This document shows, one piece after another, positions 5,599 to 40,289 of a DNA stretch of 64,000 nucleotides; positions within the stretch are counted from its first letter, which is position 1; the number at the start of each line of letters is the position of its first letter. The translations under genes and the position numbers were made by a program. This DNA comes from Candidatus Saccharimonadales bacterium (lineage in GTDB: Bacteria > Patescibacteriota > Saccharimonadia > Saccharimonadales > UBA10212). The notes below the pieces were generated by a model. That model worked only from the letters and a program-made list of their open reading frames with translations, was not told the origin of the DNA and ran no database searches. The stretch spans positions 93,874-157,873 of the forward strand of contig JANWHE010000016.1 of assembly GCA_025450575.1 (NCBI GenBank), in the 5' to 3' direction.

Positions 5599-6081
5599 AT
5601 GATAACAAAATTCATAAGCTTAGCTACGGCCATCGTTACTCTGGATGTATACCTGCAAAGTCAGCTATCTTCCAACGACCCGCTATTCTCGTTCATATCT
5701 AATAACCTGGCGGTAAATATGCTGATGGTGACACTGGCGGCAGTCGCTGTGGCGGTAAGTTTCCGAAAGCACTTTGACAGCTGGTACAGCTACGCCGCGG
5801 CTTCAGCCGGGGCGGCTATGTTGATAATTGTCGGCGGCGCCGGCTTTTTCTTCAGCGGCTTCTTACCTTCGCTGTGGATGGTAGCCTTGCCGCTTAACTA
5901 CCTACTGATGTTAGAGTTCGGCGTCATCCTAGGCGCCTGCGCCTTATCTTATAAGCACGCGCCTCGGCCGGCTTCTGTCCGCCTGCCGCGTCTGGTTACT
6001 GCCTTCAAGCTCGCTTTTCCGGTTCCCAAGATCCCTCACTTCCCCCTCGTCGGCCGGCCTACCGCCCATGACCCCGGGTAA
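5599..6081 (+). CDS. hypothetical integral membrane protein
   Basis: 160-aa ORF with about four hydrophobic helices. It is followed by a clean terminator at 6111-6134. Confidence 0.5.
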   Translation: MITKFISLATAIVTLDVYLQSQLSSNDPLFSFISNNLAVNMLMVTLAAVAVAVSFRKHFDSWYSYAAASAGAAMLIIVGGAGFFFSGFLPSLWMVALPLNYLLMLEFGVILGACALSYKHAPRPASVRLPRLVTAFKLAFPVPKIPHFPLVGRPTAHDPG

Positions 6082-6110
6082 CTTGAGATTTTTTTCACTA
6101 GAAATAAAAA

Positions 6111-6134
6111 AGGGGCCGCAAGGGTCCCTTTTTT
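6111..6134 (+). terminator. intrinsic terminator
   Basis: Stem AGGGGCC(6111-6117)/GGTCCCT(6123-6129) including one G-U pair. A T6 run follows, 30 nt after the stop of ORF 5599-6081. Confidence 0.7.
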
Positions 6135-6486
6135 ATGCTGTAACTAGCCCGAAGGTTCGTTACGGCCCGGAAAGCTCATTGCTGGACTTTCCGCGATCAC
6201 CTCACGATGACTATCCATTAGTTTATAGGACTGTGTTTTATTGTCAAAGGCTTATGTTTATGTTGTTAAAGCTTGTGTTTTATCTACAGATATGGCCTTG
6301 TGTACAACCTGTGGACAGCTTCTGGGCCGGGAACGAGTAAGGACGGTCCGCGAGGAACCGTCCTTAAGTTTTGTGAGGTGTACTTTTGGCCTTTTGCTTA
6401 GCCAATTTAAGCATAAACCCGATAATCCCTAAAAACAACAACTATTTTCAGGGTTTTTTTACCCACCTGTGAATAATTTCATATCC

Positions 6487-7344
6487 TTACGGGTTTTTAG
6501 CCTCGGCGGCCTGCCGCAGCAGGTCGTCCAGAGATACGTAATTACCTAGCTTTTCGGCGAACGGCGCCAGGCTAAGGCGTACCGTACCCTCGTTCTTGCC
6601 GGCCAGGGCGGCGATTTTAGGAACCCCATGGCCTTGTAACCACAGATCCATATACCCTACGGCGGCGGGTGTAACATGGCGCTTCCTGGGCTTCCTTAAG
6701 CTGTCGTCATATTTCTTAGTCGCTACTCTGACCGCGTCAGCGATAGCCGCTATCTCTTCGTTGCTTAGCTTATCCATGTCATCTAAATTCTCCTTGGGAT
6801 ACATCCAGGCCAGGTATTCCTGTGTCTGTTGGCGAGCGATGGGCGACAACTCCCCCCGCTCCGGCTCCATAACAACGGCTTCTCCCGTTTCCGGCTGCTG
6901 CTCTGCCTCATCTTCAGCCGGCGTTGCGTCTTCTTCGGCCGGGATTTCGACTTCCGGGAAGGGCTGGGCGGCCTCTTCGGGCACCGGAATTTCTTCGCCA
7001 AACTCTTGGGGTACCGGCGCTTCAATCAAGCCATCCCCTATCAGTAAATCAGCTAGCTCCGACAGTGGCAGTCCCGTCTGCCGCCTTATGTTTCCAATCG
7101 CCAGCTCAATCTGCTCAGACTGGGTGCTGCGGTACTTAGCGATATCTTTAATATCGTAATTTCTGAAAAGTTCGCTGACTATCAACACTTGCTCCCGGGT
7201 TAGTGAGCCTAAGATTCCCGGGTCAAACAACTCGCCGTCATCCACGGACCGCAGGTCTGATGGTTCTTCTTCGCCGCTAACTGGTTCTTCGTAAGCACAT
7301 TCCATAAGTACAGATAAGGTATCTTTTTTTAACCCCTTTCGCAA
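6487..7344 (-). CDS. hypothetical acidic protein with two HTH-like segments
   Basis: 285-aa ORF with a TTG start as annotated (an internal ATG at M14 is possible). It has a very acidic central region. Two segments look like sigma-70 region 4 / LuxR-type HTH: TREQVLIVSELFRNYDIKDIAKY and GVPKIAALAGKNEGTVRLSL. Confidence 0.45.
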   Translation of the reverse strand: MRKGLKKDTLSVLMECAYEEPVSGEEEPSDLRSVDDGELFDPGILGSLTREQVLIVSELFRNYDIKDIAKYRSTQSEQIELAIGNIRRQTGLPLSELADLLIGDGLIEAPVPQEFGEEIPVPEEAAQPFPEVEIPAEEDATPAEDEAEQQPETGEAVVMEPERGELSPIARQQTQEYLAWMYPKENLDDMDKLSNEEIAAIADAVRVATKKYDDSLRKPRKRHVTPAAVGYMDLWLQGHGVPKIAALAGKNEGTVRLSLAPFAEKLGNYVSLDDLLRQAAEAKNP

Positions 7345-7612
7345 GCATAGGCCTTATGGTCGGCCTAACAAGAAAGGAACCTTTTTAGGGGTTCCTTCCT
7401 TGCGAAGCGGTGCCACCCTAAGTGGTGTCGCTTCTGACCACCTCACAGTGGTCAATTTAATAATATGCCAGCCTATTACGCCTCGCTGTGACCGGCGTCA
7501 CACGCCGCCGGCTCTTTTAGAGGGCTGTTCAAAGTGTGCTAAATATCACTTTACAAACTGGGCGTTAAGCGTATTCTTCGCTTATAACCAAACTAAACAA
7601 AAAGGTTAAAAA

Positions 7613-7858
7613 ATGGAAAGCGATCCCCAGGAAGAATTATTTGACGACTTATATCTGGCCCAGCTTCTCCCGGCGCCCGTGTCCGCCGAACGCGGTCCGG
7701 TCAGGACCGTCTTATTCGAAGCCCGGGATATAGTCATGGGCGGCATCGACCTGCTGCGCAATCACCCTGTAGGCTCCATCGAAGTCGGGGCCAGCTTAGC
7801 CGCCACCGGCGTAGCCTTAGGCGCGGTCATCGTCCCCCGTTTGCGCCACGCCCACTAG
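7613..7858 (+). CDS. small hypothetical protein
   Basis: 81-aa ORF with AAGGT upstream of the ATG and a C-terminal hydrophobic stretch. No family recognised. Confidence 0.4.
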   Translation: MESDPQEELFDDLYLAQLLPAPVSAERGPVRTVLFEARDIVMGGIDLLRNHPVGSIEVGASLAATGVALGAVIVPRLRHAH

Positions 7859-7924
7859 GGGTCTAGGTTCTGCTAATTTATCAGCGGCGGTTTATGTATT
7901 AATAGGGCTGCTTGTGCCATAATT

Positions 7925-9334
7925 ATGCTTATGCAAAATGATAATCAAAACGCCCAACCCGGCCCCGAACCGCCACCTCAGATTAATCCGTCGCCCCAAG
8001 CATCGCCAGCACCCTCCCCTTCTGTAATTCCTCCAGACACAACGTCTCCCGCGCCTAAGCCCGGCTCTCGAAAAAAATTATTACTTTTATTCGTACTTGT
8101 ACTGGTGGTAGCCGGAGCCGCCGCGATTTATTTCCTGGTTTTGCATAAGACCAAATCGCCGGCGCCCGTCGCATCAACGCCCCCTAGCGGCTCGGTTCTG
8201 CAAAGCGCCAAGAAACAATATTTTCTAAACGATTCGGTAGCCGGTTATATCAATTACGACCCCTCGGCTTTCAAAGAGGTGGATACCACCAAACTACCGA
8301 CCATCCCGGCGGCCGACCCTAACGTCAATACTATAATCGTCCAGGCTAATGTCGTCGGTTTCAGCGACAGCGGTCTTTACCTCTACGATCTCAAAGCCAA
8401 TAAGACTTACCGGCTGACGGATGGCGGCGGTTCGCCGCGCATCATGAGCGATCATTACTTGCTTTATGGTTTCGACACTGGCAGCGGTACTACTAAACGC
8501 CTGGGCGGAAAACTGCTCAACCTGCAGACCGGGCAAACACAGACCGTCTTTTCCGACACGCCCGAAAATGTTCCGGGGACCATCTGCTGCAGCGTCTCGC
8601 CGGACGGTTTTAGAGCGGCTTTCGTCCAAAAGAACAAAATAAGCGTCTGGGATATCCGCACCCAGAAATTTACCGACTACGCCGCGACCGTCAATCCCAT
8701 AGACCCTAACTTCAGCCGCACGTCCACCAACGACTACAATACCGAAAACAGTTACGCCACTCCGGCGTGGTTGGATAACGACACAATCATTTACACCGAC
8801 AAACCGGCCGACTCCCCAGTCGCCAACCAGCCGGCCCAGATTGTTGATGACACTCTTTACAAACTGACCCTCAGCGACGACAAAAACACCGAGATAACCA
8901 CCAATACCAGCGGCATCTATAACATTTACACAGCTGCCGGCTCGACTTTCGTCGATGAAGTCCCGGTATCAAGCCCGGGCAACTCTCAGATCTCCCTGGT
9001 ACTTCTGGACGGCACGGCGCCCAGGACTATCGGTTCTAACCCGGGCTTCGCCTTGGTTTCGCCGAGCGCCCTTGGCGTGTACATGTTCAGTACTCAAGAC
9101 AGCGGCGGATATACCATGTTAAAAACTGATGCCAACGATCCTAACCAAGCACCCTCAGCTTTCGACCCGCATATCAGCGGCATCAAAGTCAGCCAGATAT
9201 TACCGCGAGGTTGGATAGACAATGACCGGATGCTACTGGCCGAACTCGACACAGCCGGCACGCAGAATCATGAGTACATAGCCGTCTATAACTCTACTAC
9301 CAATAAAGTCGAGCAATATCTCAAGATAAACTAG
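7925..9334 (+). CDS. hypothetical membrane-anchored protein, possible beta-propeller ectodomain
   Basis: 469-aa ORF with a Pro-rich N-terminus and one TM helix (LLLLFVLVLVVAGAAAIYFLVL). PD40/TolB-like snippets (SPDGFRAAFV...) suggest beta-rich repeats. The family call is tentative. Confidence 0.5.
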   Translation: MLMQNDNQNAQPGPEPPPQINPSPQASPAPSPSVIPPDTTSPAPKPGSRKKLLLLFVLVLVVAGAAAIYFLVLHKTKSPAPVASTPPSGSVLQSAKKQYFLNDSVAGYINYDPSAFKEVDTTKLPTIPAADPNVNTIIVQANVVGFSDSGLYLYDLKANKTYRLTDGGGSPRIMSDHYLLYGFDTGSGTTKRLGGKLLNLQTGQTQTVFSDTPENVPGTICCSVSPDGFRAAFVQKNKISVWDIRTQKFTDYAATVNPIDPNFSRTSTNDYNTENSYATPAWLDNDTIIYTDKPADSPVANQPAQIVDDTLYKLTLSDDKNTEITTNTSGIYNIYTAAGSTFVDEVPVSSPGNSQISLVLLDGTAPRTIGSNPGFALVSPSALGVYMFSTQDSGGYTMLKTDANDPNQAPSAFDPHISGIKVSQILPRGWIDNDRMLLAELDTAGTQNHEYIAVYNSTTNKVEQYLKIN

Positions 9335-9455
9335 CAATGCCTGCGCCCCGCCCACTGGGAAAACCGCGCCTCTCTACTCCTAGGCATGTGATTCGGATCA
9401 CATCGTACTCTATGCTAAAAGCCCACAATCAGATGATTACCATACTAAAACGCAA

Positions 9456-10832
9456 ATGACTAAACACCCCTTAAAGTCCGGCCTGCAATCGTTGATGATC
9501 AGTGACGTGCCGGCTTATGCTAACAAGTTCTTCTACTCTCTTGGCTTCTTATCGATGACCTCATTTATGCTGCTGCTGGTTAGCGGCGTCATAATGGCCG
9601 TATTCGGTCCGGACTGGTGGCTGACCAGCTCGCCGGGTAGGTATCTGCGCAGTGTTCATCTGTGGGCTACTCAAGCATTCGTACTATTCATAATCCTCCA
9701 TCTGCTTATCGTCTTTTTAACTTCGGGGTTTAAAAAACCGCGCCGGCTGACTTGGGTCATCGGGGTTTTTATGTTCTTGTTCGTCCTGATGGAGGCGGAG
9801 TTCGGCTACGTACTGCGCGGTGACTACTCCAGCCAGTGGCGGGCGCTCCAGGGGGCCGACCTATATAACGGCACCGGTCTGGGATATTGGCTGCACAACA
9901 TAAACTACCGGCAGATATTCGGTCTGCACGTGGTAGTTATCCCGGCGGTTATAATCGGGCTGTTGTTCTTCCACTATCTGTTAGTCAGAGTTCTGGGCAT
10001 AGCCAAACCGCACCGCAAAGACGTGCATGTACCGACCGTCAAAGCCAACCATACCGTCCTATTCGTGCGCGGCGGCGCGCTTATAGCGTTAATTTTAGGC
10101 CTGGCGGCGTTCTTACCTTCGCCCTACATAAAACCCGATACCGCCCAAAGCATCGCCCAGTCCGATCCCAAAATCATCGCCCAGACCCTTGTAAAGGAAT
10201 TCGACCACTCATCCGACACCGCCACCTATATGGACAGTATTAATCCGTACAATTTCGATACCAGGAAGGTGTACATAAATGACCCTTACGCCCAGTACGT
10301 GGTGCTGACGCGGTCGCCGGATATGCTAAGCCGCTTCAACGCCCTGCCGCCGGCGGTCCAGCAGGCCCAGACCCAGGCCGCCGCCGACTTCTTCGACAAT
10401 TCCTATCCGGCCCAGCGGCCGGGCTCCGCTAATCCTCTGGAAAGCGTGGTGGTGTCTCTCACGGATATGGCGGCCGCTGGATTGTACGAACCGGCCCTTG
10501 ATTCCGCGCCGTCCGGAGGCGACCAATCCACTTATTCACTGCGCTTTTTGGCGGATACCGGGGTATTGGAAGATAACGCTACTTCACTCGGCATAACCAC
10601 CGACCAATACGGCATGCTGCGCGAAGAAAAAGGAACTATACCGCCCGGCGCGTGGTGGCTGGCGCCAATTGGACTGATGAACCATACCATTCTTGCCAAC
10701 GACGATAATGGCGACCGCGACGGCGCCATCATTTTGGGCTGTTTTCTGCTGCTGCTTATGGCTTTCCCGTTCATACCGGGGCTTAACCGCCTCCCGGAAT
10801 GGCTGAAAGTCTACAAACTTATCTGGCGGTGA
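9456..10832 (+). CDS. cytochrome b6/b N-terminal-domain protein with long C-terminal extension
   Basis: 458-aa ORF. It matches cytochrome b6 as I recall it: LRSVHLWATQ...ILHLL, GFKKPRRLTWVIGV (b6 has GFKKPRELTWVTGV) and FGLHVVVIP...FFHYLL. The His pairs H68/H82 and H158/H173 are spaced 14 and 15 residues apart, the b6-type spacing. Confidence 0.78.
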   Translation: MTKHPLKSGLQSLMISDVPAYANKFFYSLGFLSMTSFMLLLVSGVIMAVFGPDWWLTSSPGRYLRSVHLWATQAFVLFIILHLLIVFLTSGFKKPRRLTWVIGVFMFLFVLMEAEFGYVLRGDYSSQWRALQGADLYNGTGLGYWLHNINYRQIFGLHVVVIPAVIIGLLFFHYLLVRVLGIAKPHRKDVHVPTVKANHTVLFVRGGALIALILGLAAFLPSPYIKPDTAQSIAQSDPKIIAQTLVKEFDHSSDTATYMDSINPYNFDTRKVYINDPYAQYVVLTRSPDMLSRFNALPPAVQQAQTQAAADFFDNSYPAQRPGSANPLESVVVSLTDMAAAGLYEPALDSAPSGGDQSTYSLRFLADTGVLEDNATSLGITTDQYGMLREEKGTIPPGAWWLAPIGLMNHTILANDDNGDRDGAIILGCFLLLLMAFPFIPGLNRLPEWLKVYKLIWR

Positions 10833-10859
10833 TCCCAACTGGGCTTATAATAGGTACGC

Positions 10860-11180
10860 ATGGGCCATGAGGACGACTTACCGCAGATAATCGGCGAGGT
10901 GCCGGGCGACGAGGCTTTGATGTACGAGCCGGCACTTGAATTCTTCCAACGAAGGTCCCAGCCGCACGGCGGCCGCATGGCCGACGGCCACGAACTGGCT
11001 ACTAAGATAGAGGATGACATCGTAGGGTTAGACGACCTCATTATTGAACGTAACGGCGATAACCGCACTTTCACCGCCCGCCACAAAAAAGGCTTAGAAA
11101 TCGTCGCCGTAACCCTTACCGTGGCCGGCGTCCTGGCCGCCACCCACCAAATCCGCACCCGCCGCCGGCATGGCACGTGA
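10860..11180 (+). CDS. small hypothetical protein (uncertain)
   Basis: 106-aa ORF that fills the gap between the cytochrome b-like gene and the cupin gene. It has a C-terminal hydrophobic segment. I prefer it to the overlapping antisense ORF only on composition. Confidence 0.3.
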   Translation: MGHEDDLPQIIGEVPGDEALMYEPALEFFQRRSQPHGGRMADGHELATKIEDDIVGLDDLIIERNGDNRTFTARHKKGLEIVAVTLTVAGVLAATHQIRTRRRHGT

Positions 11181-11240
11181 GCCATGTCACTACCATCCCG
11201 GCCGGTTAGTGCGATGCTAAAGCTGTAACAGGAGACAGCT

Positions 11241-11666
11241 ATGGCATTAGTAAATAACATTACCGGACAAGCAAAGGCCAACGATTATTTCCGGCAAGTA
11301 TTGGCAACCGGCAAGCATACCCAGGTAGTAATTATGAGCATTCCGGCCGGCGACGATATCGGCGAAGAGGTCCACAAGGATAACGACCAGGTCTTATATC
11401 TGATAAGTGGCAGCGGCCAGGTCGTGCTGGATGGTCAAACTTCGGATTTCAATACCGGCGACTTAGTGTTGGTGCCGGCCGGCACCAAACACAACTTCAT
11501 CACAAAAGGCGACCAGCCCATGAAAATAATCACTACTTACTCCCCGCCCCACCACCCTGATGGCACGATCCATAAGTCCAAACAAGACGCCCAAAACGCC
11601 GAGGATAAAGCCAAGAAAATCGCCACCACAGCCGCTATCACCGCTTCCACCTTCCAAGTCCTTTAG
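11241..11666 (+). CDS. cupin domain protein
   Basis: 141-aa ORF with a GGAG RBS. The cupin motifs are present: GEEVHKDNDQVLYLISGSG...GDLVLVPAGTKHNF. Confidence 0.85.
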   Translation: MALVNNITGQAKANDYFRQVLATGKHTQVVIMSIPAGDDIGEEVHKDNDQVLYLISGSGQVVLDGQTSDFNTGDLVLVPAGTKHNFITKGDQPMKIITTYSPPHHPDGTIHKSKQDAQNAEDKAKKIATTAAITASTFQVL

Positions 11667-11679
11667 CTTTTAATAAGCG

Positions 11680-11707
11680 AAGAGGGGCCGTTTTTTCGGC
11701 CCCTCTT
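11680..11707 (+). terminator. stem-loop terminator after the cupin gene
   Basis: Perfect 11-bp stem AAGAGGGGCCG/CGGCCCCTCTT with a TTTTTT loop, 14 nt after the stop. There is no trailing U-tract. Confidence 0.5.
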
Positions 11708-11983
11708 GGTACCCTGCTCCGTCGTCACGAACCAGCGCATTTTTTTTCAGCCATTTTTGTGGATGACTACCAAAATGATAATCCTTACTTACTACAGCTT
11801 CCAGTGATTTCCATCACACCAGAAAATTATTGAATAATCCGCGTCATAAAAAAGGAGCTTGTTTAGGGCTCCTTTCTCCGCAGCTTCCCCACCGAAGCAG
11901 TTCGCTGCTAGCCGCTCTCACGATTGGTTACAAAAATCATAAACCCACCCAGCAATCACGCACAGTGATTTCCCTCACATTTT

Positions 11984-12331
11984 TTAAATTTTTATACCTT
12001 GGACGATTTGTTGCTCACGTATTTTAGCAGCCTCGGCAAGAGCCTTAGCGATCTTTCCTAAATCAGAGTGAATGTATGCGTTAGGGATATGTACAGTTTC
12101 GTACCCTAACTTGTCCGAATAATAGGTGCGAGCCATATCGCTAATAATCTGATGCGGGTTTGTAAGGTGCTGTTTCCCGTCAACTTCAATATTTATTTTG
12201 GCGTCCGGAATAGTTAAGTCTATCTTTTTAAACCCGTCTCTAACTTGAGCCAAGACCCGAAGCCCATGTTCTTCTAATGCTTCTTTCAGCATTTTCTCTT
12301 CAGGGGTGGGCCTTCTTCGCCAGTATTTCAT
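11984..12331 (-). CDS. DUF559 / Vsr-like endonuclease domain protein
   Basis: 115-aa ORF. The pattern IDLTIPDAKINIEVDGKQH...YYSDKLGYETVHI resembles the DUF559 (restriction-endonuclease-like) domain. It lies in a low-G+C stretch. Confidence 0.6.
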   Translation of the reverse strand: MKYWRRRPTPEEKMLKEALEEHGLRVLAQVRDGFKKIDLTIPDAKINIEVDGKQHLTNPHQIISDMARTYYSDKLGYETVHIPNAYIHSDLGKIAKALAEAAKIREQQIVQGIKI

Positions 12332-12389
12332 CTATTTATCATATTAAGTTTGATTTTCATGGGATCAAATTTACTGACGTCTGAACTCC

Positions 12390-12539
12390 CTATGCGAGCG
12401 CTTCTTTGAGTATTATTTCTTCCCGTTCTTTATCATAGTGATAATGGATTATCTCACCATTAATGATTAAACTAATTGCTCTATCTCTTATTCCAAGCGG
12501 AGCAATATTCTCCTCAACTGCATTTAATGTAATTCTCAC
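12390..12539 (-). CDS. possible 49-aa ORF (GTG start) upstream of the DUF559-like gene
   Basis: My own translation is VRITLNAVEENIAPLGIRDRAISLIINGEIIHYHYDKEREEIILKEALA*. It is below the ORF-track cutoff and very A+T-rich, and I see no recognisable RBS. Confidence 0.2.
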   Translation of the reverse strand: MRITLNAVEENIAPLGIRDRAISLIINGEIIHYHYDKEREEIILKEALA

Positions 12540-12583
12540 TTCTAGCTTATTTTACCCCTGTTTCGGGGAATTTTATAGGCCGG

Positions 12584-12931
12584 TTAGAGCTCGGTGTATT
12601 TGGCGTGGGAGCCTTTGGCTTTAGAGACAGGATACTTGGCTTCGTTTTGTTTCATCTTGCTATCAAAAGCTTTGGCTAAATCTATATCCATATCGTGGGC
12701 GATTAAAAGGACCCAGTATAAGACGTCTATCAGCTCGTCGCTGACATCGGTGTGCTTGACTTTGAGATGCTTTTTAACTTCGTCGGACGATTTCCACTGG
12801 AAATGCTCCAGAAATTCGGCGGCTTCTAAAAGCATAGACACCGCCAGGTCCTTGGGATTATGGAACTGTTCCCAATCGCGGGCATCACGGAAGGCCACCA
12901 CCTGTTTTTGCAGATCATCCAAACTAGCCAT
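12584..12931 (-). CDS. MazG-like nucleotide pyrophosphohydrolase
   Basis: 115-aa ORF. The sequence FRDARDWEQFHNPKDLA...LLEAAEFLEHFQW...ELIDVLYWVLLIA is typical of the all-alpha NTP pyrophosphohydrolases (MazG/DCTPP1-like). Confidence 0.85.
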   Translation of the reverse strand: MASLDDLQKQVVAFRDARDWEQFHNPKDLAVSMLLEAAEFLEHFQWKSSDEVKKHLKVKHTDVSDELIDVLYWVLLIAHDMDIDLAKAFDSKMKQNEAKYPVSKAKGSHAKYTEL

Positions 12932-13004
12932 GCACTATCCCTTTCTACCAGAATTATACTTCTGTTTCCGGCAAGAATACAGCCGTCATGCGCGGCAAGC
13001 CGCC

Positions 13005-13694
13005 TTAGCCGGCCGCCGCCAGCAGACCGGTGAGAAACTGGATGTTTTCCGGCTGGCAGCTGAACAGGTAGCGGGCTTCGTCGGTGTAATATCGATGGTT
13101 GCCGACTATTTGGATCTGGTTTGCTAGGAAAGCCAGAAGAACTTCGCCGGTCAGCTGGATTCCCGGATAAGTTTCGGCGAAGAACCGGCGTGCTGACTCC
13201 CAATACTCGGTTTCGGGCAGACCGAATGACGACAGATCGGCATCGGCCATCAGCATGGTAAGATAATCGTCCGGCGAAGCGGATTGCTCTATGCGCTGGT
13301 TAGCAACCGCTTTGACCTTAGTGGCGGCGATGATGTTTTTGACGCGGTCGGTTTCGGCCTGAGGAAAGATGCCTAGCATGTTCATATGCCGGGCGGCCAG
13401 TTCGGCGCTGAGTTCTTCGCTGTCACTTCTTTGGACGTCGTAGACGGCATCGTGATAAGCGGCGGCGATCATCAGCAGATCGTGCTGGGCGCGGTCTATC
13501 CTGCCGGCCGCCATAGCGGCATCGGCCAGCCGGCCGGCCGAGGTTATGACCATCAAAGTGTGTTCCGGCCCATGGTACGGCTTAGGATCGGGGCTGCTGG
13601 GCCCATAATTTCTGGTGGCGGTATCCAAACCTCTGGATATCAAAGCTTTTACGGCAAGCTCGCGCGGGGATTCGGGCCGGTGGGAGGTCTCCAT
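13005..13694 (-). CDS. HD-domain phosphohydrolase-like protein
   Basis: 229-aa ORF with the H...HD signature (YHGPEHTLMV ... AAAYHDAVYD). Confidence 0.6.
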   Translation of the reverse strand: METSHRPESPRELAVKALISRGLDTATRNYGPSSPDPKPYHGPEHTLMVITSAGRLADAAMAAGRIDRAQHDLLMIAAAYHDAVYDVQRSDSEELSAELAARHMNMLGIFPQAETDRVKNIIAATKVKAVANQRIEQSASPDDYLTMLMADADLSSFGLPETEYWESARRFFAETYPGIQLTGEVLLAFLANQIQIVGNHRYYTDEARYLFSCQPENIQFLTGLLAAAG

Positions 13695-13801
13695 TTATAA
13701 TATTTTAACATTTTATCAACACTTTGTCGATTAATAACTCTCGGGATGATCGCCGCCATCCCTTTTTGTAAGGTTTAGAGCATTACGGTTATAATAGAGG
13801 C

Positions 13802-14050
13802 ATGAACCCCGGGCAAAACGACGTGAACCTGCGCTACACCTCGCCAATAGTGGTATCCGACGGCCACGTAGTAGCTATCAGCGACGAAGGCGTGCCCAGC
13901 CTGATGTTTTTCCAGGCCCGCGAACAGCACGAAGGCCATCTGCACGCCGACGTGGTGGCCGCCGTACGCTTAAACAAGATAGACGACCTTAAGGCGCTAG
14001 CCAAAGCCATCAACGACACCATCAAACAACACCAGAGCCGCGAACCTTAG
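13802..14050 (+). CDS. small hypothetical protein (possibly DUF3467-like)
   Basis: 82-aa ORF. The C-terminal pattern VRLNKIDDLKALAKAINDTIKQH is loosely like DUF3467. Confidence 0.4.
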   Translation: MNPGQNDVNLRYTSPIVVSDGHVVAISDEGVPSLMFFQAREQHEGHLHADVVAAVRLNKIDDLKALAKAINDTIKQHQSREP

Positions 14051-14104
14051 GCTATTGCGCTCACGCTTATTTTATGTTGTGAAATTGTTTTAAACTATTG
14101 ACCG

Positions 14105-14448
14105 CCCGTCTTCCCCGGCGATAGTATCAATTTAGGCGCCAGCCATGCCCGCAAGGTATGACTGACAGCTTATGAAATTTGTGAGTCGCAGTAAGTTCCG
14201 ATTCCATAGACAGCCTGCCGTTCTAGACAGCCGGCTTCACTAGGGAGACGAAGGTCTTCTGACGAAACAGTGCGCCGACCGCGGACGTTCCATAAACGAC
14301 CGCGGACAGCGTGCCTTCGCCGGGGCAAAGGAGACAGGTCATACAGCGTCCGGCCGGATGTTACAATTCCGAGAGATATCTAGGAAGTATGGCTGAAAAT
14401 GCAATCGGCGCTTTAAATCCCGCACCTAGGCAGTGCCGGGATTTTTTG
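14105..14448 (+). ncRNA. rnpB: candidate RNase P RNA (reduced type A); ends approximate
   Basis: This is a 470-nt gap with no ORF. GUAAGUUCCGAUUCCAUAGACAG (14191-) resembles the CR-I region GGAAAGUCCGGGCUCCAUAGGGCAG. ACGAAACAGUGCG resembles ACGACCAGUGCA. AUAAACGACCGCGGACAGCGUGCC resembles GUAAACUCCACCCGGAGCAAGGCC. A P4-like long-range pairing joins 14193-14203 to 14403-14413 (10 of 11 positions). The region ends in a hairpin plus T-run at 14415-14447. The E. coli M1 sequence was recalled from memory. Confidence 0.5.
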
Positions 14449-14519
14449 TATATAAGACACCCCGCGACTCTGTTAACTAAGTAACATACCTTTGTGTCCG
14501 TTTAGGCTATATTTATCGG

Positions 14520-15194
14520 GTGGAGGAGACTGAATCCGATTATCTGAAGCAGATTAACCAGCTGTTCGCCAGCGGGCGTTCTAAGACATACCCCAAAAGC
14601 CAGCTGATCCACTACCAGGGTGACCCTTTGACTCAGATATACCTGGTGAAAAGCGGTTTCGTCAAAGCCTATACCATCCTGGAGTCCGGCGATACCCGGA
14701 CCATCCTGCTGCTGGGCGCCGGCGATATCTTTCCACTGGCTTTCGCCTCGACCATGGACTGGAGCGACTACAACATCCACTATTTTTACCAATCGCTGGT
14801 CGATACCGAGCTGGCGGCTCTGCCGGCCAAAGAGCTGATGGAGCATCTGCGCTCCGACCCGGCGGCCATGAACACTTATATGGCCTACTTATCAGCCAGC
14901 AACGAGATAATTATGAACCAGCTGGAAGTGATGAAGAATAAAAAGGCCATCGACAAAGTCTGCCTGCTGCTGCCTTACCTGATATCCAAGTCCGGCAAAC
15001 AGATCAAACCCGATATTTATGAGCTGCAGCTGAAACTATCGCACCAGGAGCTGGCCGACTTATCCGGCGTCACCCGCGAGACTACCACGACGCTTCTCAA
15101 GCAGCTGGAAAACCTCGGCATCATCGACCAAAAGCACGGCAAGTGGCAGGTCAATACCATCGCCCTGAATAAGATGCTGGAGGGTAAGCGCTAA
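14520..15194 (+). CDS. Crp/Fnr family transcriptional regulator
   Basis: 224-aa ORF with a GTG start. It has an N-terminal cNMP-binding-like beta-roll and a C-terminal Crp-type HTH (SHQELADLSGVTRETTTTLLKQLENLGII). Confidence 0.85.
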   Translation: MEETESDYLKQINQLFASGRSKTYPKSQLIHYQGDPLTQIYLVKSGFVKAYTILESGDTRTILLLGAGDIFPLAFASTMDWSDYNIHYFYQSLVDTELAALPAKELMEHLRSDPAAMNTYMAYLSASNEIIMNQLEVMKNKKAIDKVCLLLPYLISKSGKQIKPDIYELQLKLSHQELADLSGVTRETTTTLLKQLENLGIIDQKHGKWQVNTIALNKMLEGKR

Positions 15195-15286
15195 AGGGTT
15201 GTTGTAACAAACTTTACTGTTTCTTGGATATGATGGGGTCATAGTGGGATTCACCGGCTTTTTAGAGAGAAAAATGGAGATTTATA

Positions 15287-15763
15287 ATGGCAGCCGAAGA
15301 TAATCAGGGACTTGATATCATCAGCCCGGTTTTCCGTAACGGGTCGCCTATACCGCCGCAATATACTTGCCGAGGCCAGAACGTCAACCCGCCCTTAAAC
15401 ATCTTTAACGTGCCGGACGGCGCCCAAAGCCTGACGCTTATCATGCACGACCCAGACGCTGTAAGCGGCGACTATCTGCACTGGCTGATGTGGGATATCC
15501 CGCCGGGGACCGATTCGATCCCGGTCAACAGCGTGCCAGTGGGCGCCGTCCAGGGACCAAACGGCGGCGGCTCATCTGGCTATAGCGGCCCCTGCCCGCC
15601 CAAGGGCACCGGCACCCATCATTACGTTTTTGATTTTTACGCCTTGGACACCACGCTGGATCTGCCTAGCGGTTCCGGCATCCAGGATGTTATCAAGGCC
15701 CAGGCCGGCCACGTGCTAGATCATTGCGAGCTGGTCGGATTATTCGCCGCCGAAGAAGATTAA
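15287..15763 (+). CDS. YbhB/YbcL family Raf-kinase-inhibitor-like (PEBP) protein
   Basis: 158-aa ORF with the motifs LIMHDPDA...HWLMWDIP...GPCPP.GTGTHHYVF.FYALD. Confidence 0.88.
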   Translation: MAAEDNQGLDIISPVFRNGSPIPPQYTCRGQNVNPPLNIFNVPDGAQSLTLIMHDPDAVSGDYLHWLMWDIPPGTDSIPVNSVPVGAVQGPNGGGSSGYSGPCPPKGTGTHHYVFDFYALDTTLDLPSGSGIQDVIKAQAGHVLDHCELVGLFAAEED

Positions 15764-16254
15764 TCTACCGGCGCATAGTTGACGTGGCAGGCGCCGTAGC
15801 CGTTCTTTTGGGAGAATTTCTGGTGGTATTCTTCGGCCGGCCACCATTTGCTGGCCGGCTCCAGCGTGGTAACTATCGGTTTTTTGAAATCGCCGGATTC
15901 ATCCAGCTCTTTTATTAAAGTTTGAGCGGCCCGCTTCTGTTCGTCGTCTTTATAAAAAACGGCTGAGCGGTAATTATCACCGACATCCGGGCCCTGGCGG
16001 TTCAGCTGCGTCGGATCGTGCATATGGAAAAATTGTTTCAGAAGAGTTTGGTAGCTGACTTTTGCGGGGTCGTAGACCACTTTCGTGGCTTCGGCGTGGC
16101 CGGTGCCGTGAGCGCTGACCTGTTCGTAAGTGGGGTTATCCAGGTGGCCGCCGATGTAGCCGACTTCCGTCTCCAGTACGCCCGGGACTTGGTCGAAATA
16201 GTCCTGTACTCCCCAGAAACACCCGGCCGCGAATATGGCTTCTTCTCTGCTCAT
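15760..16254 (-). CDS. msrA: peptide-methionine (S)-S-oxide reductase
   Basis: 164-aa ORF with the GCFWGVQDYF active-site motif and a conserved MsrA core. Its 3' end overlaps the convergent PEBP gene by 4 nt. Confidence 0.93.
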   Translation of the reverse strand: MSREEAIFAAGCFWGVQDYFDQVPGVLETEVGYIGGHLDNPTYEQVSAHGTGHAEATKVVYDPAKVSYQTLLKQFFHMHDPTQLNRQGPDVGDNYRSAVFYKDDEQKRAAQTLIKELDESGDFKKPIVTTLEPASKWWPAEEYHQKFSQKNGYGACHVNYAPVD

Positions 16255-16272
16255 ACTCCTATTATATCCCGG

Positions 16273-17073
16273 CTAGCTGGCGAGGTCGCGGCGGCGGAAA
16301 GCCAGCCAGGCGGCCCCCAGGCAGACGGCGGTTAGTCCGGCGAAATAAATCAGATTGGCAAAATTGTACTGTCCGGTCAGCAGCTGCGCCGCATGATAAT
16401 AATTGAACGGGAACGCTTTGGCCGGCCAGCGCAGCCAGCTGACGGAGGGCACCAGCGAAACGATTATGTAGCCACCCAGGCCAAAGGCGGCCGCCGCGGC
16501 TATGCTGGCGGTCCGGCCCACCCGGCCCATAGCCGTCAGCATAAAGGCCACCGCTCCGAAACAAAGAGCTAGGAGCATGCATACGGCCGCTGTCTCGGCG
16601 ACGTATAGCGACGATATATCCAGTTTTACTAACCGGCACATCACCACTACGAAGGCTATCGACACGCCGCCAACGATGACCAGCGCCTCCAGGCCGGCCA
16701 AAGCCTTACCCAGCAGCAGCCGGGCACGGGATATCGGCCGGGCCAGCAGCATTTCTATGGTGTTATCCCTCTCTTCCCTGCCAATCAGCGACATGCCCAG
16801 ATTGATAGCGAAAATAGATAGCAGCAGCGGCAGCAACAGGTAGAATATCTGGCTGCTTAAATAGCCGACCGGCGAAAAGATATTGCTGGTATCGGTGAAT
16901 AGCTGCTTGGCGGTCTGCGGAATTTGATTGAACGATTTATCCAGCTGAGCCGCTTGATCTTTAAGCGTCGGATAAAAAATCAATGTCAAAAAGATAAAGA
17001 AGATAATGCCGGCCGCCCACCAGAAAATCGACCAGCGGCGCTGCCAGAGAGCCCATTTGGCTATCGTCTTCAT
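16273..17073 (-). CDS. ABC-2 type transporter permease
   Basis: 266-aa ORF with six TM helices. It overlaps the upstream ATPase gene by 4 nt (ATGA), suggesting translational coupling. Confidence 0.7.
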   Translation of the reverse strand: MKTIAKWALWQRRWSIFWWAAGIIFFIFLTLIFYPTLKDQAAQLDKSFNQIPQTAKQLFTDTSNIFSPVGYLSSQIFYLLLPLLLSIFAINLGMSLIGREERDNTIEMLLARPISRARLLLGKALAGLEALVIVGGVSIAFVVVMCRLVKLDISSLYVAETAAVCMLLALCFGAVAFMLTAMGRVGRTASIAAAAAFGLGGYIIVSLVPSVSWLRWPAKAFPFNYYHAAQLLTGQYNFANLIYFAGLTAVCLGAAWLAFRRRDLAS

Positions 17074-36819: not shown

Positions 36820-37536
36820 ATGGACGATATCCGCCGCCCTCATCACCAGCGACGCGATTTCGCTATGCGCCATCGCCCTCACCAGCCCCCGCCCAGTCCT
36901 AACTCTCCGGCTCCCGGTCCCGCGCCGGCGCCGGCCATTCCCCATCATACACCGGCCGCGGTCCCTCAGGACGGCCTGGCGCCGGCAGCCGCCTCCGAAA
37001 CCGGTTATGAACATTACGGCCGGCCGGCGCCGCGGCCTAATCTCCAGCCGGCCGCCAAAAAAAAGCTGCTGCCCAAGATCCGGCCCAGATACGCCGCGGC
37101 CGGTTTAGCCGCCGTCTTATTGATAGCCGCCGGCGCTTATCTGCTCACCCGGCCGGCCCAAAAATCCGGGTTTTCGGTAGCCCAGCTGGCCAAAAAGTCG
37201 GCTTTCAGCTTTTATTATCCCCAGCCGCTACCCAACGGCTACGCTTACGTGACGAAAATCAACGCCTTCCAGGGCGGCCAGGCGTACTTTATGCTGGCCA
37301 ACGGGTCCAAACATATTATCTTCCGCGAACAAGCGGCCGGCGGCCAAACGACCGGGGGCCTGAGCGGCTCCCATAATATCCGTTCGGCGGCCGGCACGGC
37401 GGCCATTGGCACCCAAGCCGGCCAGCCGGCCGCCAAAGTGCTGGCCGGGTCCACGCTGATATCTATTAATACCACCGGCTCGGTGCCGTCCGCCGATCTC
37501 ACCTGGGTTATCGATTCTCTGAAAACTGACCGTTAA
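36820..37536 (+). CDS. single-pass membrane protein, paralog A (Arg/Pro-rich N-terminus, conserved ectodomain; DUF4367-like, tentative)
   Basis: 238-aa ORF: MDDIRRP..RRDF, a Pro-rich linker, a TM helix (AAGLAAVLLIAAGAYLL), then YYPQPLPNGYAYV.. It shows clear similarity to ORFs 37576-38247 and 40290-40958. Confidence 0.65.
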   Translation: MDDIRRPHHQRRDFAMRHRPHQPPPSPNSPAPGPAPAPAIPHHTPAAVPQDGLAPAAASETGYEHYGRPAPRPNLQPAAKKKLLPKIRPRYAAAGLAAVLLIAAGAYLLTRPAQKSGFSVAQLAKKSAFSFYYPQPLPNGYAYVTKINAFQGGQAYFMLANGSKHIIFREQAAGGQTTGGLSGSHNIRSAAGTAAIGTQAGQPAAKVLAGSTLISINTTGSVPSADLTWVIDSLKTDR

Positions 37537-37575
37537 TGTTGCTAAGCGTAAGCGATTTAAGGTAAATTATCAGAT

Positions 37576-40245: not shown

Positions 40246-40289
40246 AGCCGCTTGTGGTTTAAACCACCAATACGTTATCTTATCTATAG

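What the first reader, a model, noticed from the sequence alone, without database searches (positions are those of the whole stretch)
9456..10832. Orphan cytochrome b6-like protein with intact bis-heme ligands and a novel 270-aa C-terminal extension
Residues ~20-185 match cytochrome b6/b closely as I recall those sequences: LRSVHLW..ILH, GFKKPRRLTWVIGV and FGLHVVV..FFHYLLV. Both His pairs are present with b6-type spacing (H68/H82 = 14; H158/H173 = 15). I see no Rieske protein, cytochrome c/f, subunit IV or any other respiratory gene in the 64 kb, and the neighbours are unrelated. The C-terminal ~270 aa has one TM helix, a long soluble segment and a final TM helix. It ends in ..RLPEWLKVY, where the PEW tripeptide is reminiscent of the PEWY Qo-site motif and may be coincidental. 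It resembles nothing I recognise. If the genome is indeed a reduced fermentative lineage, a stand-alone di-heme membrane cytochrome is unexpected. It could act in transmembrane electron transfer to an extracellular acceptor or to a host-derived quinone.
Basis: partly seen in the sequence, partly recalled or inferred. Interest (0 to 1): 0.66.

Follow-up and report, generated by a model that had tools for sequence, protein, structure and literature searches.

The report
Rieske-less cytochrome b with fused cap
This gene from a tiny Saccharibacteria (TM7) bacterium encodes a real two-heme membrane cytochrome b; its "novel tail" is a remodelled second subunit found beside cytochrome b in hundreds of other bacteria, always without the usual iron-sulfur partner, and its function is unknown.

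Summary
ORF 9456-10832(+) encodes a 458-aa protein with a genuine cytochrome b/b6 N-terminal domain. All four heme-ligand histidines are invariant in its family, and the 64-kb window has no Rieske, cytochrome c, oxidase, quinone or heme genes.

The interpretation needs correcting.
- The protein is not an orphan. At least 120 full-length relatives (62-97% identical) exist in Ca. Saccharimonadales, with further ones in Paceibacterota, Micrarchaeota-like archaea and the cultured actinobacterium Raineyella fluvialis.
- The C-terminal extension is a conserved module. It occurs in at least 563 GTDB species, mostly Actinomycetota and Bacillota. It is fused to, or encoded directly after, a cytochrome b domain in 82 of 82 cases examined, and never has a conserved Rieske or cytochrome c neighbour.
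- Its first helix is the canonical helix E (profile-profile probability 99%).
- Its last ~50 residues weakly match the PEWY/ef-helix/helix F part of subunit IV. The invariant W401 falls on the PEWY tryptophan.
- The ~170 residues between are a confidently predicted all-helical domain with no PDB, Pfam or NCBIfam match.

Most likely function: a Rieske-independent, quinone-linked transmembrane electron-transfer unit. This mechanism is inferred, not shown. I rate it a new variant of a known kind, of moderate interest.

The parts
9456..10832 (+). Whole gene: 458-aa fused cytochrome b plus subunit-IV-like module (six TM helices).
   Evidence: ORF listing. The family is conserved over the full length. 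AF2 model has pLDDT 83 and pTM 0.79.
9519..10010 (+). Cytochrome b/b6-type four-helix di-heme core (residues 22-185; helices A-D).
   Evidence: Pfam PF13631 and PF00033 score above their gathering cutoffs. PDB b6 hits. hhalign against long cytochrome b gives 99.2% probability. Foldseek against b6 7r0w_A gives rmsd 3.2 over 209 columns.
9657..9659 (+). H68 codon: predicted axial ligand of the p-side heme (bL), helix B.
   Evidence: Invariant in A1. Aligns with the ligand His of six reference cytochromes b.
9699..9701 (+). H82 codon: predicted ligand of the n-side heme (bH), helix B.
9927..9929 (+). H158 codon: predicted ligand of the p-side heme (bL), helix D.
9972..9974 (+). H173 codon: predicted ligand of the n-side heme (bH), helix D.
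9537..9548 (+). S28-L29-G30-F31, at the position of the b6/QcrB CxGG motif. The Cys that binds heme c_n is absent.
   Evidence: The alignment with Brevibacillus and Bacillus QcrB shows C-F-G-G at these columns. SLGF is invariant in the family.
9813..9911 (+). Remodelled cd loop on the p-side (residues 120-152). 'RGD(Y/F)SSQW' replaces the canonical Qo 'PW(D/G)Q', and the loop is about 12 residues shorter.
   Evidence: Reference alignment. Ten of 33 positions are at least 90% conserved across the superfamily.
10050..10118 (+). Helix E (residues 199-221), homologous to helix E of long cytochrome b / subunit IV. It begins with the family-invariant H199.
   Evidence: The hhalign alignment runs through residue 223 at 99.2% probability. 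AF2 predicts a helix at 199-219.
10119..10631 (+). An all-alpha soluble domain of about 170 residues inserted in the ef loop, predicted to lie on the outer (p) face. No known fold or family.
   Evidence: AF2 gives pLDDT mostly above 90 for residues 230-350. Foldseek of the module alone against PDB has a best E of 0.9. No Pfam or NCBIfam hit. Homologous to the stand-alone module.
10632..10709 (+). PEWY-like segment plus ef helix (residues 393-418). P397, G398, W401 and L402 are at least 90% conserved across the superfamily.
   Evidence: The only hhalign hit of module A3 against subunit IV/cyt b C-half A4 aligns residues 393-441 with QcrC 78-126. It maps A399-W400-W401-L402 onto P-D-W-Y, with E 0.0023 and probability 12.5%. 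Conservation.
10710..10778 (+). Helix F (residues 419-441), ending in PFIP, which corresponds to PFLD in QcrC. D420, P438 and P441 are invariant across the superfamily.
10779..10829 (+). Cytoplasmic C-terminal tail '..LPxxLxVYKLIWR' (P447 and W457 conserved).

Best explanation
The gene encodes a six-helix, two-heme cytochrome b of the Rieske/cytochrome b (bc-complex) superfamily. It is the fused form of a widespread but undescribed two-gene cassette: a short cytochrome b followed by a module of about 325 aa.

The module corresponds to subunit IV, i.e. the C-terminal half of long cytochrome b. It consists of helix E, then the ef loop enlarged by a helical domain of about 170 residues with a new fold, then a degenerate PEWY motif (A/P-W-W-L), an ef helix and helix F.

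Proposed mechanism (inferred):
1. H68 and H158 hold a heme near the outer face. H82 and H173 hold a heme near the inner face.
2. Electrons cross the membrane through these two hemes.
3. They pass between a remodelled quinol/quinone pocket on the outer face and a site on the inner face. The outer pocket would be built from the altered cd loop and the PEWY-like segment. The helical cap would cover it where the Rieske head normally docks.
4. With no Rieske protein there is no bifurcated Q cycle. The unit would be a Rieske-independent, probably menaquinol-linked, transmembrane electron-transfer device.
5. In Saccharibacteria it would have to be loaded with scavenged heme and would use scavenged quinone, as the literature proposes for their cytochrome bo3 oxidase.

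Shown: homology of the core and helix E, conservation of the ligands, the obligate pairing of cytochrome b with the module, and the absence of conserved Rieske or cytochrome c neighbours.

Inferred: heme binding, a quinone pocket, the position of the cap, the direction of electron flow, and the physiological partners.
For: - Domain and ligands.
- Family size and full-length conservation.
- The module exists outside this family, both fused and stand-alone.
- Three-gene cassette in Alicyclobacillus, Ca. Hydrogenisulfobacillus and Thermaerobacter, with overlapping stop and start codons.
- At least 563 GTDB species carry the module. In 80 fetched loci, 82 of 82 module genes directly follow a cytochrome b domain (73 split, 9 fused). 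No Rieske or cytochrome c cluster appears among the neighbours.
- Helix E homology: hhalign probability 99.2%, E 3e-19, window residues 22-223.
- The sole hhalign hit of the module against the reference alignment of subunit IV and the C-terminal half of long cytochrome b falls exactly on the PDWY-to-helix-F region.
- The AF2 model is confident (pLDDT 83, pTM 0.79) and has a helix at 400-411 immediately after P397-G398, as in the PEWY/ef helix.
- Foldseek ranks long cytochrome b chains first (TMq 0.41-0.45), above the b6 core alone (0.35).
- Literature: soil Saccharibacteria carry NDH-2 and cytochrome bo3 but lack quinone and heme synthesis, so scavenging has been proposed (PMC6031116, PMC8407418). 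Micr-/Parvarchaeota have a 'bc1' cytochrome b while most genomes lack the Rieske subunit (PMC5864196).
Against: - The PEWY/helix F equivalence is statistically weak: probability 12.5%, with a reference alignment of only five sequences.
- PF00032 (cytochrome b C-terminal domain) does not hit.
- Both canonical Qo signatures are altered. PW(D/G)Q becomes RGDxSSQW. The PEWY Glu and Tyr are replaced by W and L. A quinol-oxidising pocket is therefore not assured.
- I could not inspect model coordinates, so the position of the cap over the Qo crater is assumed.
- Near-invariant residues are not enriched on either membrane face.
- No quinone-related gene lies in the window.
- Whole-genome co-occurrence with oxidases or NDH-2 could not be tested.
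- No experimental data exist for any member.
Confidence: 0.5

Rival explanations
1. Outward electron conduit, analogous to MsrQ/YedZ, cytochrome b561 or ferric reductases. Electrons from an inner-face donor (quinol or a cytoplasmic reductase) cross the two hemes. They reach an extracytoplasmic acceptor or partner protein that docks on the helical domain, for example for repair, disulfide or metal chemistry in the cell envelope, or for reducing host-derived compounds.
For: - There is no Rieske or cytochrome c partner.
- A large conserved outer-face domain has no conserved His, Cys or Met ligands, which suits a docking or binding role.
- One variant (P0121) continues through an extra TM helix into an extracellular PQQ/BamB-like beta-propeller.
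- In one Saccharibacteria genome, a VKOR gene lies 96 nt upstream and an FMN_bind/ApbE/NqrB-F-like cluster lies a few kb downstream.
- The carriers labelled so far are almost all Actinomycetota, Bacillota, Patescibacteria/CPR and DPANN-type archaea, with a single Gemmatimonadota MAG as the exception.
Against: - No conserved partner gene appears in more than 90 contexts.
- Retention of helix E, the PEWY-like motif and helix F, together with a highly conserved cd loop, points to a lipid-facing quinone-type pocket rather than a protein dock.
- The VKOR and beta-propeller links are single cases.
- The window's upstream membrane-anchored protein is unrelated to the P0121 beta-propeller.
Confidence: 0.25
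2. Ordinary split subunit of a canonical bc/b6f-type complex, whose Rieske protein and c-type cytochrome are encoded elsewhere in the genome.
For: Only 64 kb of the genome is visible. Rieske genes are not always next to cytochrome b genes (PMC5600118). A few Micr-/Parvarchaeota genomes do have a Rieske gene (PMC5864196).
Against: - The cassette is never next to a Rieske or cytochrome c gene: 80 GTDB loci, 3 Firmicutes genomes and 7 CPR/archaeal contexts.
- The Qo motifs that form the Rieske docking and quinol site are changed.
- A 170-residue domain is inserted in the ef loop.
- The CPR papers that survey respiratory genes report cyo/cyd oxidases and NDH-2 and describe the rest of the electron-transport chain as largely absent; none reports a bc complex or a Rieske gene (PMC8407418, PMC9166423, PMC12592800).
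Confidence: 0.1
3. Decaying or heme-less relic with no redox role, in an organism that cannot make heme.
For: Saccharibacteria lack heme biosynthesis (PMC6031116). No partner genes lie in the window.
Against: - The reading frame is intact.
- The four His ligands, the two heme-propionate Arg residues and about 150 other positions are invariant across 43 members at 63-82% identity.
- At least 120 full-length clusters exist.
- The same architecture is kept across phyla and domains.
Confidence: 0.03

Closest known systems
Cytochrome b6 + subunit IV (PetB/PetD) of b6f, and QcrB + QcrC of Bacillota menaquinol:cytochrome c reductase
   Same: - A four-helix di-heme core with the same His ligands and spacing.
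- The 'GFKKPR(E/R)LTW' loop is nearly identical.
- The second part begins with helix E and ends with a PxW-type motif, an ef helix and helix F ending in PF(L/I)x.
- The family occurs both split and fused, as b6/subunit IV does relative to long cytochrome b.
   Different: - No CxGG Cys, so no heme c_n.
- PW(D/G)Q is replaced by RGDxSSQW, and PEWY by (A/P)WWL.
- A helical domain of about 170 residues is inserted in the ef loop.
- Helix G is absent.
- No Rieske protein, cytochrome f or cytochrome c partner.
- NCBIfam b6 scores 65 bits against a cutoff of 325.
Long cytochrome b of bc1/bcc complexes (e.g. actinobacterial QcrB, PDB 9gy6, 7q21)
   Same: These are the best Foldseek matches (E 3.5e-8, TMq 0.38-0.45). 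Profile homology runs through helix E.
   Different: The window protein has six helices rather than eight. PF00032 does not hit. The ef loop is expanded. There are no QcrA/QcrC neighbours.
Rieske-less or 'obscure function' cytochrome b clades in Dibrova et al. 2013/2017 (subfamily G, which lists Ca. Saccharibacteria and Patescibacteria; subfamilies K and H)
   Same: Saccharibacteria cytochrome b sequences were placed in subfamily G of the bc-complex tree. Several clades there lack clear partners (PMC5600118).
   Different: The main text of that paper (searched; its supplement was not available) does not describe the module, its obligate pairing with cytochrome b, the ef-loop insert or the small subunits. 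I could not see their supplementary tree to confirm that these are the same sequences.
'Cytochrome bc1 without iron-sulfur subunit' reported in Micrarchaeota/Parvarchaeota (Chen et al. 2018, PMC5864196)
   Same: This is the same situation of a cytochrome b without a Rieske protein in ultrasmall symbionts. The compact fused form here includes a Micrarchaeota-labelled protein and an archaeal contig.
   Different: I did not verify that their genes are members of this family.
Di-heme transmembrane electron carriers MsrQ/YedZ, cytochrome b561 and formate-dehydrogenase/hydrogenase cytochrome b (functional analogues)
   Same: Two stacked b hemes in a helical bundle carry electrons across the membrane without a Q cycle. 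The protein gives weak sub-threshold hits to DUF4405 and Ni_hydr_CYTB.
   Different: The fold family differs. The hits are below the gathering cutoffs, and the core is clearly of the bc type.

Membership tests
Cytochrome b/b6 N-terminal domain (Pfam PF00033 / PF13631) | Profile score above the curated gathering threshold. | tested here: met
   PF13631 scores 69.5 bits (cutoff 27). PF00033 scores 47.2 bits (cutoff 27.2).
Cytochrome b/b6 N-terminal domain (Pfam PF00033 / PF13631) | Two His on helix B and two on helix D, positioned to ligate two b hemes. | tested here: met
   H68, H82, H158 and H173 are invariant in the family. They fall in the same columns as the ligand His of six reference proteins, with spacing 14/15.
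Cytochrome b/b6 N-terminal domain (Pfam PF00033 / PF13631) | Actual binding of two b-type hemes. | not testable with these tools
   This needs expression and spectroscopy.
Cytochrome b6 of b6f-type complexes (NCBIfam PRK03735) | Score above the curated cutoff. | tested here: not met
   65.1 bits against a cutoff of 325.
Cytochrome b6 of b6f-type complexes (NCBIfam PRK03735) | CxGG motif in helix A (the Cys that binds heme c_n). | tested here: not met
   The motif is SLGF, invariant in the family. QcrB references have CFGG in those columns.
Cytochrome b6 of b6f-type complexes (NCBIfam PRK03735) | Rieske FeS protein and a c/f-type cytochrome as partners. | tested here: not met
   None is present in the 64-kb window. 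None is conserved in more than 90 related contexts. The rest of the genome is not visible.
Long cytochrome b of bc1 complexes (PF00032 C-terminal domain) | C-terminal domain profile match; helices E to H. | tested here: not met
   PF00032 gives no hit at E up to 0.1. Only two TM helices follow the core. Helix E itself is homologous.
Long cytochrome b of bc1 complexes (PF00032 C-terminal domain) | PEWY (PxWY) Qo-site motif before helix F. | tested here: inconclusive
   hhalign places A399-W400-W401-L402 on P-D-W-Y, with the invariant W401 on the Trp. Support is only E 0.0023 and probability 12.5%. The Glu/Asp and Tyr positions are not kept.
ExtP-type b cytochrome (NCBIfam NF040969) | Score above the curated cutoff. 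| tested here: not met
   76.2 bits against a cutoff of 290.
Unnamed 'cytochrome b-associated module' family (defined here) | N-terminal TM helix, helical soluble domain, PGxxWL motif, final TM helix ending PF(I/L)P, and an (L/I)(I/V)WR tail. | tested here: met
   Window residues 190-458 align over their full length with 43 stand-alone modules. P223, P264, Y265, G342, G386, W401, D420, P438, P441 and W457 are invariant.
Unnamed 'cytochrome b-associated module' family (defined here) | Always fused to, or encoded immediately downstream of, a cytochrome b N-terminal domain. | tested here: met
   This holds for 82 of 82 module genes in 80 GTDB loci and for 3 of 3 Firmicutes genomes. In the window the two are fused.

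The most novel reading that the evidence does not exclude
The cassette defines a third, self-contained architectural class of the Rieske/cytochrome b superfamily. It would be a Rieske-less complex made of a small one-helix subunit (in Actinomycetota), a di-heme cytochrome b, and a remodelled subunit IV whose ef loop has become a new-fold cap. The class would be common in Actinomycetota and Bacillota. Its compact fused form would have spread horizontally among genome-reduced episymbionts of both domains (Saccharibacteria, Paceibacterota, Micrarchaeota) and to at least one actinobacterium. In those quinone- and heme-auxotrophic cells it would allow them to plug into quinones or other redox carriers taken from the host membrane.
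Probability: 0.25. Interest if true: 0.8.

Novelty: new variant of a known kind. Interest (0 to 1): 0.55.

Why it matters
Cytochrome b of the bc superfamily is normally understood only together with its Rieske partner and the Q cycle. This family has kept the di-heme core and a recognisable remnant of subunit IV, has no conserved Rieske or cytochrome c gene next to it in any context examined, and has gained a large new domain.

It occurs in hundreds of soil and acid-environment Actinomycetota and Bacillota. It also occurs in CPR bacteria and DPANN-type archaea that are thought to lack electron-transport chains. No curated family model or published description was found for the module.

Working out its function would help in three ways:
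- It could explain the recurring 'cytochrome b without Rieske' puzzle in the genomes of ultrasmall symbionts.
- It would inform models of how these organisms use heme and quinone taken from hosts.
- It would add a data point on how bc complexes were assembled from modules.

Cultured carriers make it experimentally tractable. They include Raineyella fluvialis, which has the compact fused form at 61% identity, and Alicyclobacillus, Kitasatospora, Leifsonia and Rathayibacter.

Tried and rejected
1. A conserved small ORF downstream of the Saccharibacteria gene. The Firmicutes cassette has a 2-TM ORF of 69-77 aa after the module. The ORFs after the Saccharibacteria genes are unrelated to it and to each other, so I rejected it as a partner in this lineage.
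2. The actinobacterial 1-TM upstream subunit in Saccharibacteria. An HMM built from 59 members finds only generic TM similarity in the window (the 160-aa ORF at 5599-6081) and in L003. I found no equivalent.
3. A link between the window's upstream membrane-anchored protein (7925-9334) and the beta-propeller fused to the P0121 variant. BLASTP shows no similarity.
4. Locating the functional site from conservation. Near-invariant residues are about equally dense on both membrane faces, so this was uninformative.
5. Fold of the module alone. Foldseek against PDB gives nothing significant (best E 0.9, Bcl-2-like helical bundles at TM about 0.15).
6. Promoter and terminator scan around the gene. Nothing above chance.
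7. tRNA and Rfam scans of the window. Nothing found.
8. Looking for a cytochrome b annotation in the Ca. T. rhizospherense gene table (PMC6031116 supplement). Only cyo/qox entries appear in the stored, truncated text, so this was inconclusive.
9. Gene context of the Raineyella protein. It is not on record in the contig index.
10. The supplement of Dibrova et al. 2017 is not held.
11. The Streptomyces pFRL4 370-aa cytochrome b beside P-type ATPases. It is a different, shorter architecture with its own PLWMFWW motif, and I did not pursue it.
12. 'b6-type' His spacing as a discriminator. I rejected it because all six references share the 14/15 spacing.
Full report
**1. The observation**

The ORF is real: 9456..10832 (+), ATG start, TGA stop, 458 aa. 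Pfam finds the cytochrome b N-terminal domain well above the curated thresholds. PF13631 scores 69.5 bits against 27, and PF00033 scores 47.2 against 27.2. A sequence search of PDB returns cytochrome b6 chains first (7r0w_I, E 2e-15, residues 17-185), followed by actinobacterial QcrB and bc1 cytochromes b.

The histidines are at 68, 82, 158 and 173. In an alignment with six genuine bc-complex cytochromes b taken from annotated plasmid records, all four fall in the ligand columns. The references are Brevibacillus and Bacillus QcrB, Alteromonas cytochrome b, and Rhodococcus and Streptomyces QcrB. The two heme-propionate arginines (R65, R96) and the helix A glycine G30 also align.

All the references have it, so it is not diagnostic of b6.

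I scanned all 66 ORFs of at least 80 aa in the window. They are housekeeping genes: aminoacyl-tRNA synthetases, ribosomal proteins, RRF, EF-Ts, RF1, FtsZ/FtsA, ParAB, class II RNR/NrdR, PriA, a Crp-family regulator, MsrA and an ABC transporter. None is a respiratory, quinone or heme gene. No tRNA or Rfam element was found.

**2. The protein is not an orphan**

A search of 5.8 billion proteins gave 556 hits. The best 120 are all 411-497 aa and 62-97% identical over the whole length. Those with names are called 'cytochrome b N-terminal domain-containing protein [Candidatus Saccharimonadales bacterium]'.

The window is syntenic with a 169-kb Saccharimonadales contig, L003. The shared order is SerRS, PDDEXK, YggT, zincin, then cytochrome b, then Crp, PBP, MsrA, MPG, LysRS and GreA.

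In 43 aligned members the four His and about 150 other positions are invariant, including much of the C-terminal part. The b6 CxGG site is SLGF, so there is no heme c_n cysteine.

**3. What the extension is**

An exhaustive phmmer search with residues 186-458 against 1.84 billion representatives found 95 proteins. Among them are two kinds of relative beyond the close family:
- other cytochrome b fusions of 474-639 aa;
- many stand-alone proteins of about 320-340 aa with the same layout.

That layout is an N-terminal TM helix, a soluble domain with a YGPPY motif, a YPGxxWLxxY motif, a final TM helix and an RLIWRDWY tail.

These stand-alone proteins have no Pfam or NCBIfam model. Some records call them 'cytochrome B6'.

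In Alicyclobacillus mengziensis, Ca. Hydrogenisulfobacillus filiaventi and a Thermaerobacter MAG, the module gene overlaps the stop codon of a 204-213-aa short cytochrome b. A 2-TM ORF of 69-77 aa follows it.

They are mostly Acidimicrobiales, Solirubrobacterales, Gaiellales and other Actinomycetota, including Kitasatospora, Leifsonia, Rathayibacter and Actinacidiphila isolates. There are also Bacillota and one Gemmatimonadota MAG.

In the 80 loci fetched, 82 of 82 module genes follow directly after a cytochrome b domain: 73 as the adjacent ORF and 9 fused. Clustering of all neighbouring ORFs gave one further conserved partner. It is a 1-TM ORF of about 60 aa, 'GHY(I/V)HWGFIQ(I/L)SVAN-TM-LPFP', upstream of cytochrome b in 76 of 80 loci. 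No Rieske or cytochrome c cluster appeared.

The Saccharibacteria gene is therefore the fused form of a widespread cytochrome b + module cassette.

**4. Relation to subunit IV**

Profile-profile comparison of the superfamily alignment with long cytochromes b gives 99.2% probability (E 3e-19). The alignment covers window residues 22-223, so it includes helix E.

I also compared the module profile with a small reference alignment of subunit IV (QcrC N-terminal parts) and the C-terminal halves of long cytochromes b. The only hit aligns window residues 393-441 with 'SFIPVPDWYFLFLYQLLK…APFLD' of QcrC. It places A399-W400-W401-L402 on P-D-W-Y, and PFIP on PFLD.

The statistics are weak (E 0.0023, probability 12.5%, five reference sequences). 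Three observations fit the alignment:
- The position is exactly the expected one.
- W401, P397, G398, L402, D420, P438 and P441 are at least 90% conserved, several of them invariant, across the superfamily.
- The AF2 model has a short helix at 400-411 followed by TM helix 419-439, as in the PEWY/ef-helix/helix F arrangement.

The full-length AF2 model is confident (pLDDT 83.2, pTM 0.79). Foldseek ranks long cytochromes b of bcc/bc1 complexes first (E 3.5e-8, TMq 0.38-0.45). These score above the b6 core alone (TMq 0.35, rmsd 3.2 Å over 209 columns), which is consistent with helices E and F also superposing. I could not inspect coordinates, so this remains indirect.

The ~170 residues between helix E and the PEWY-like segment form an all-helical domain with pLDDT mostly above 90. 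Folded on its own, the module finds nothing in PDB (best E 0.9).

By topology the insert lies on the outer face. The N-terminus is on the n-side and helix D ends on the n-side, so helix E crosses to the p-side.

**5. Family-specific differences in the core**

- The Qo-site 'PW(D/G)Q' at the end of helix C is 'RGD(Y/F)SSQW'.
- The cd loop is about 12 residues shorter and highly conserved. Ten of its 33 positions are at least 90% conserved across the superfamily.
- The PEWY Glu/Asp and Tyr positions are W (or P/A) and L/M.
- No His, Cys or Met is conserved in the insert across the superfamily, so no additional redox cofactor is indicated.

**6. Contexts in CPR bacteria and archaea**

The neighbours of the fused gene differ among seven Saccharibacteria, Paceibacterota and archaeal contexts. 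Individual cases of interest:
- L098: a VKOR gene 96 nt upstream, and FMN_bind, ApbE and an NqrB/F-like protein a few kb downstream.
- L097: the F-ATPase operon 2.3 kb away.
- L096 and the window: a cupin gene downstream.
- L095, an archaeal contig carrying Cdc48 genes: two pyridine-nucleotide-disulfide oxidoreductases and a 2-oxoacid dehydrogenase complex flanking the gene.

The compact fused form (about 460-500 aa) carries labels of several groups. These are Ca. Saccharibacteria, Ca. Paceibacterota, 'Patescibacteria group', Ca. Micrarchaeota and the cultured actinobacterium Raineyella fluvialis. The Raineyella protein is 61% identical to the window protein over its full length. In a rough neighbour-joining tree without support values it nests among Saccharibacteria-labelled sequences.

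**7. Literature**

- Dibrova et al. 2017 list Ca. Saccharibacteria and Patescibacteria among the taxa added to 'subfamily G' of the cytochrome b tree. In the main text they do not describe this architecture (PMC5600118). The supplement was not available.
- CPR papers discuss cyo/cyd oxidases, NDH-2 and the lack of quinone and heme synthesis. They propose scavenging and do not discuss this protein (PMC6031116, PMC8407418, PMC9166423, PMC12592800, PMC11665869).
- Chen et al. 2018 noted that Micr-/Parvarchaeota have a 'cytochrome bc1' while most genomes lack the iron-sulfur subunit (PMC5864196). This family probably accounts for that observation, but I did not verify the genes.

**8. How it most likely works**

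Shown:
- the bc-type di-heme scaffold with all ligands conserved;
- a canonical helix E;
- obligate pairing with the module;
- the absence of conserved Rieske or cytochrome c neighbours.

Inferred:
- Two b hemes span the membrane.
- A remodelled lipid-facing pocket lies near the outer heme. It would be built from the cd loop and the PEWY-like/ef segment.
- The new helical domain caps that pocket where the Rieske head would dock.
- Without a high-potential acceptor there can be no bifurcated Q cycle. The unit probably shuttles electrons between (mena)quinol/quinone and a site on the other face.
- The direction of flow and the physiological partner are open.

The main rival is an outward conduit to an extracytoplasmic acceptor docking on the cap, in the manner of MsrQ or cytochrome b561. 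The beta-propeller fusion and the VKOR neighbour hint at it, but no conserved partner supports it. An ordinary bc complex with distant partner genes, or a relic gene, are both unlikely.

My confidence that it belongs to the bc-type cytochrome b superfamily as the fused form of a cytochrome b + module cassette is about 0.9. My confidence in the specific quinone-linked, Rieske-independent mechanism is about 0.35-0.4.

**9. Verdict**

The 'orphan with a unique extension' is one member of a large, unnamed, Rieske-less cytochrome b + remodelled subunit IV family.

It is a new variant of a known kind. Interest is moderate (0.55). The family is widespread, uncharacterised and present in CPR/DPANN symbionts, and cultured carriers exist. 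The evidence is computational, and the key PEWY equivalence is weak.

Noticed in passing
P0382 (Raineyella fluvialis Rai3103_11060) compared with window 9456-10832: A cultured actinobacterium (Propionibacteriales, 3.65-Mb contig) carries the compact fused form. It is 61% identical over its full length to the Saccharibacteria protein. In a rough NJ tree it nests among Saccharibacteria-labelled sequences. This suggests horizontal transfer between Saccharibacteria and an actinobacterium, the phylum that hosts cultured Saccharibacteria.
   Followed up: partly
L014-L093, directly upstream of the cytochrome b genes (e.g. L048 4946-5149): A conserved 1-TM ORF of about 60 aa, 'GHY(I/V)HWGFIQ(I/L)SVAN-TM-LPFP', precedes cytochrome b in 76 of 80 actinobacterial-type loci. 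It is N-terminally fused in P0174 and P0210. It is probably a third subunit and has no Pfam or NCBIfam model. Mini-ORFs with 'PN(Y/H)…TM' occupy the same place in the three Firmicutes loci.
   Followed up: partly
L005 9035-9244, L006 8969-9187, L007 8984-9217: In the Firmicutes cassettes a 2-TM ORF of 69-77 aa follows the module gene, overlapping it or within 45 nt. It might supply the missing helices G and H, but this is speculative.
   Followed up: no
L098 5291-12468: In one Saccharibacteria genome a VKOR gene lies 96 nt upstream of the cytochrome b gene on the same strand. FMN_bind, ApbE and a 491-aa NqrB/RnfD-like + NAD_binding_1 protein follow a few kb downstream. Together they form a cluster of quinone/flavin membrane-redox genes.
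   Followed up: partly
P0121 (982 aa): This variant of the fused cytochrome b + module continues through an extra TM helix into a PQQ/BamB-like beta-propeller of about 500 aa, predicted to be extracellular.
   Followed up: partly
L095 (archaeal contig, GCA_021799535.1) 6841-16863: The compact fused gene also occurs on a contig with Cdc48/VCP genes, so the organism is an archaeon. That fits the Micrarchaeota label of the related protein P0376. There it sits between two Pyr_redox_2 oxidoreductases and next to a 2-oxoacid dehydrogenase complex.
   Followed up: partly
L031, L035, L063 and other Solirubrobacterales/Acidimicrobiales loci: In 9-20 of the 80 loci the cassette lies near genes with a hypoxia or redox-stress flavour. 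These are OmpR-type response regulators, tandem-GAF HisKA_3 kinases (DosS-like architecture), tandem Usp, Pyridox_ox_2 and an SQR/NDH-2-like Pyr_redox_2 gene. The sample is taxonomically biased.
   Followed up: partly
window 6068-9334: Relative to the syntenic contig L003, the window has about 3.3 kb extra between the conserved 160-aa 4-TM gene (5599-6081) and the cytochrome b gene. The extra DNA carries an acidic 285-aa protein on the minus strand, an 81-aa ORF and a 469-aa protein with a Pro-rich N-terminus and a TM anchor. None has a Pfam family.
   Followed up: partly
window 11241-13694: The stretch between the cytochrome b gene and the Crp regulator differs from L003. It holds a cupin, a DUF559/REase-like gene with low GC3 (0.41; 11984-12331), a MazG-like gene and an HD-domain gene. 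It may be a small variable island.
   Followed up: no
window 40960-47580 (-): A 2206-aa ORF with no Pfam match. It is flanked by further ORFs without matches (36820-40958).
   Followed up: no
window 14520-15194 (+): A Crp/FNR-family regulator lies about 3.7 kb downstream of the cytochrome b gene and is kept in the syntenic contig L003. Starr et al. 2018 suggested that FNR-type regulators sense O2 in soil Saccharibacteria.
   Followed up: no
L008 5360-7268 (Streptomyces sp. F2 plasmid pFRL4): A different 370-aa cytochrome b with its own 'PLWMFWW' motif and a short C-terminal part. It lies between two hypothetical genes, among heavy-metal P-type ATPases and a YncE-like beta-propeller gene. It is another Rieske-less cytochrome b architecture.
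   Followed up: no
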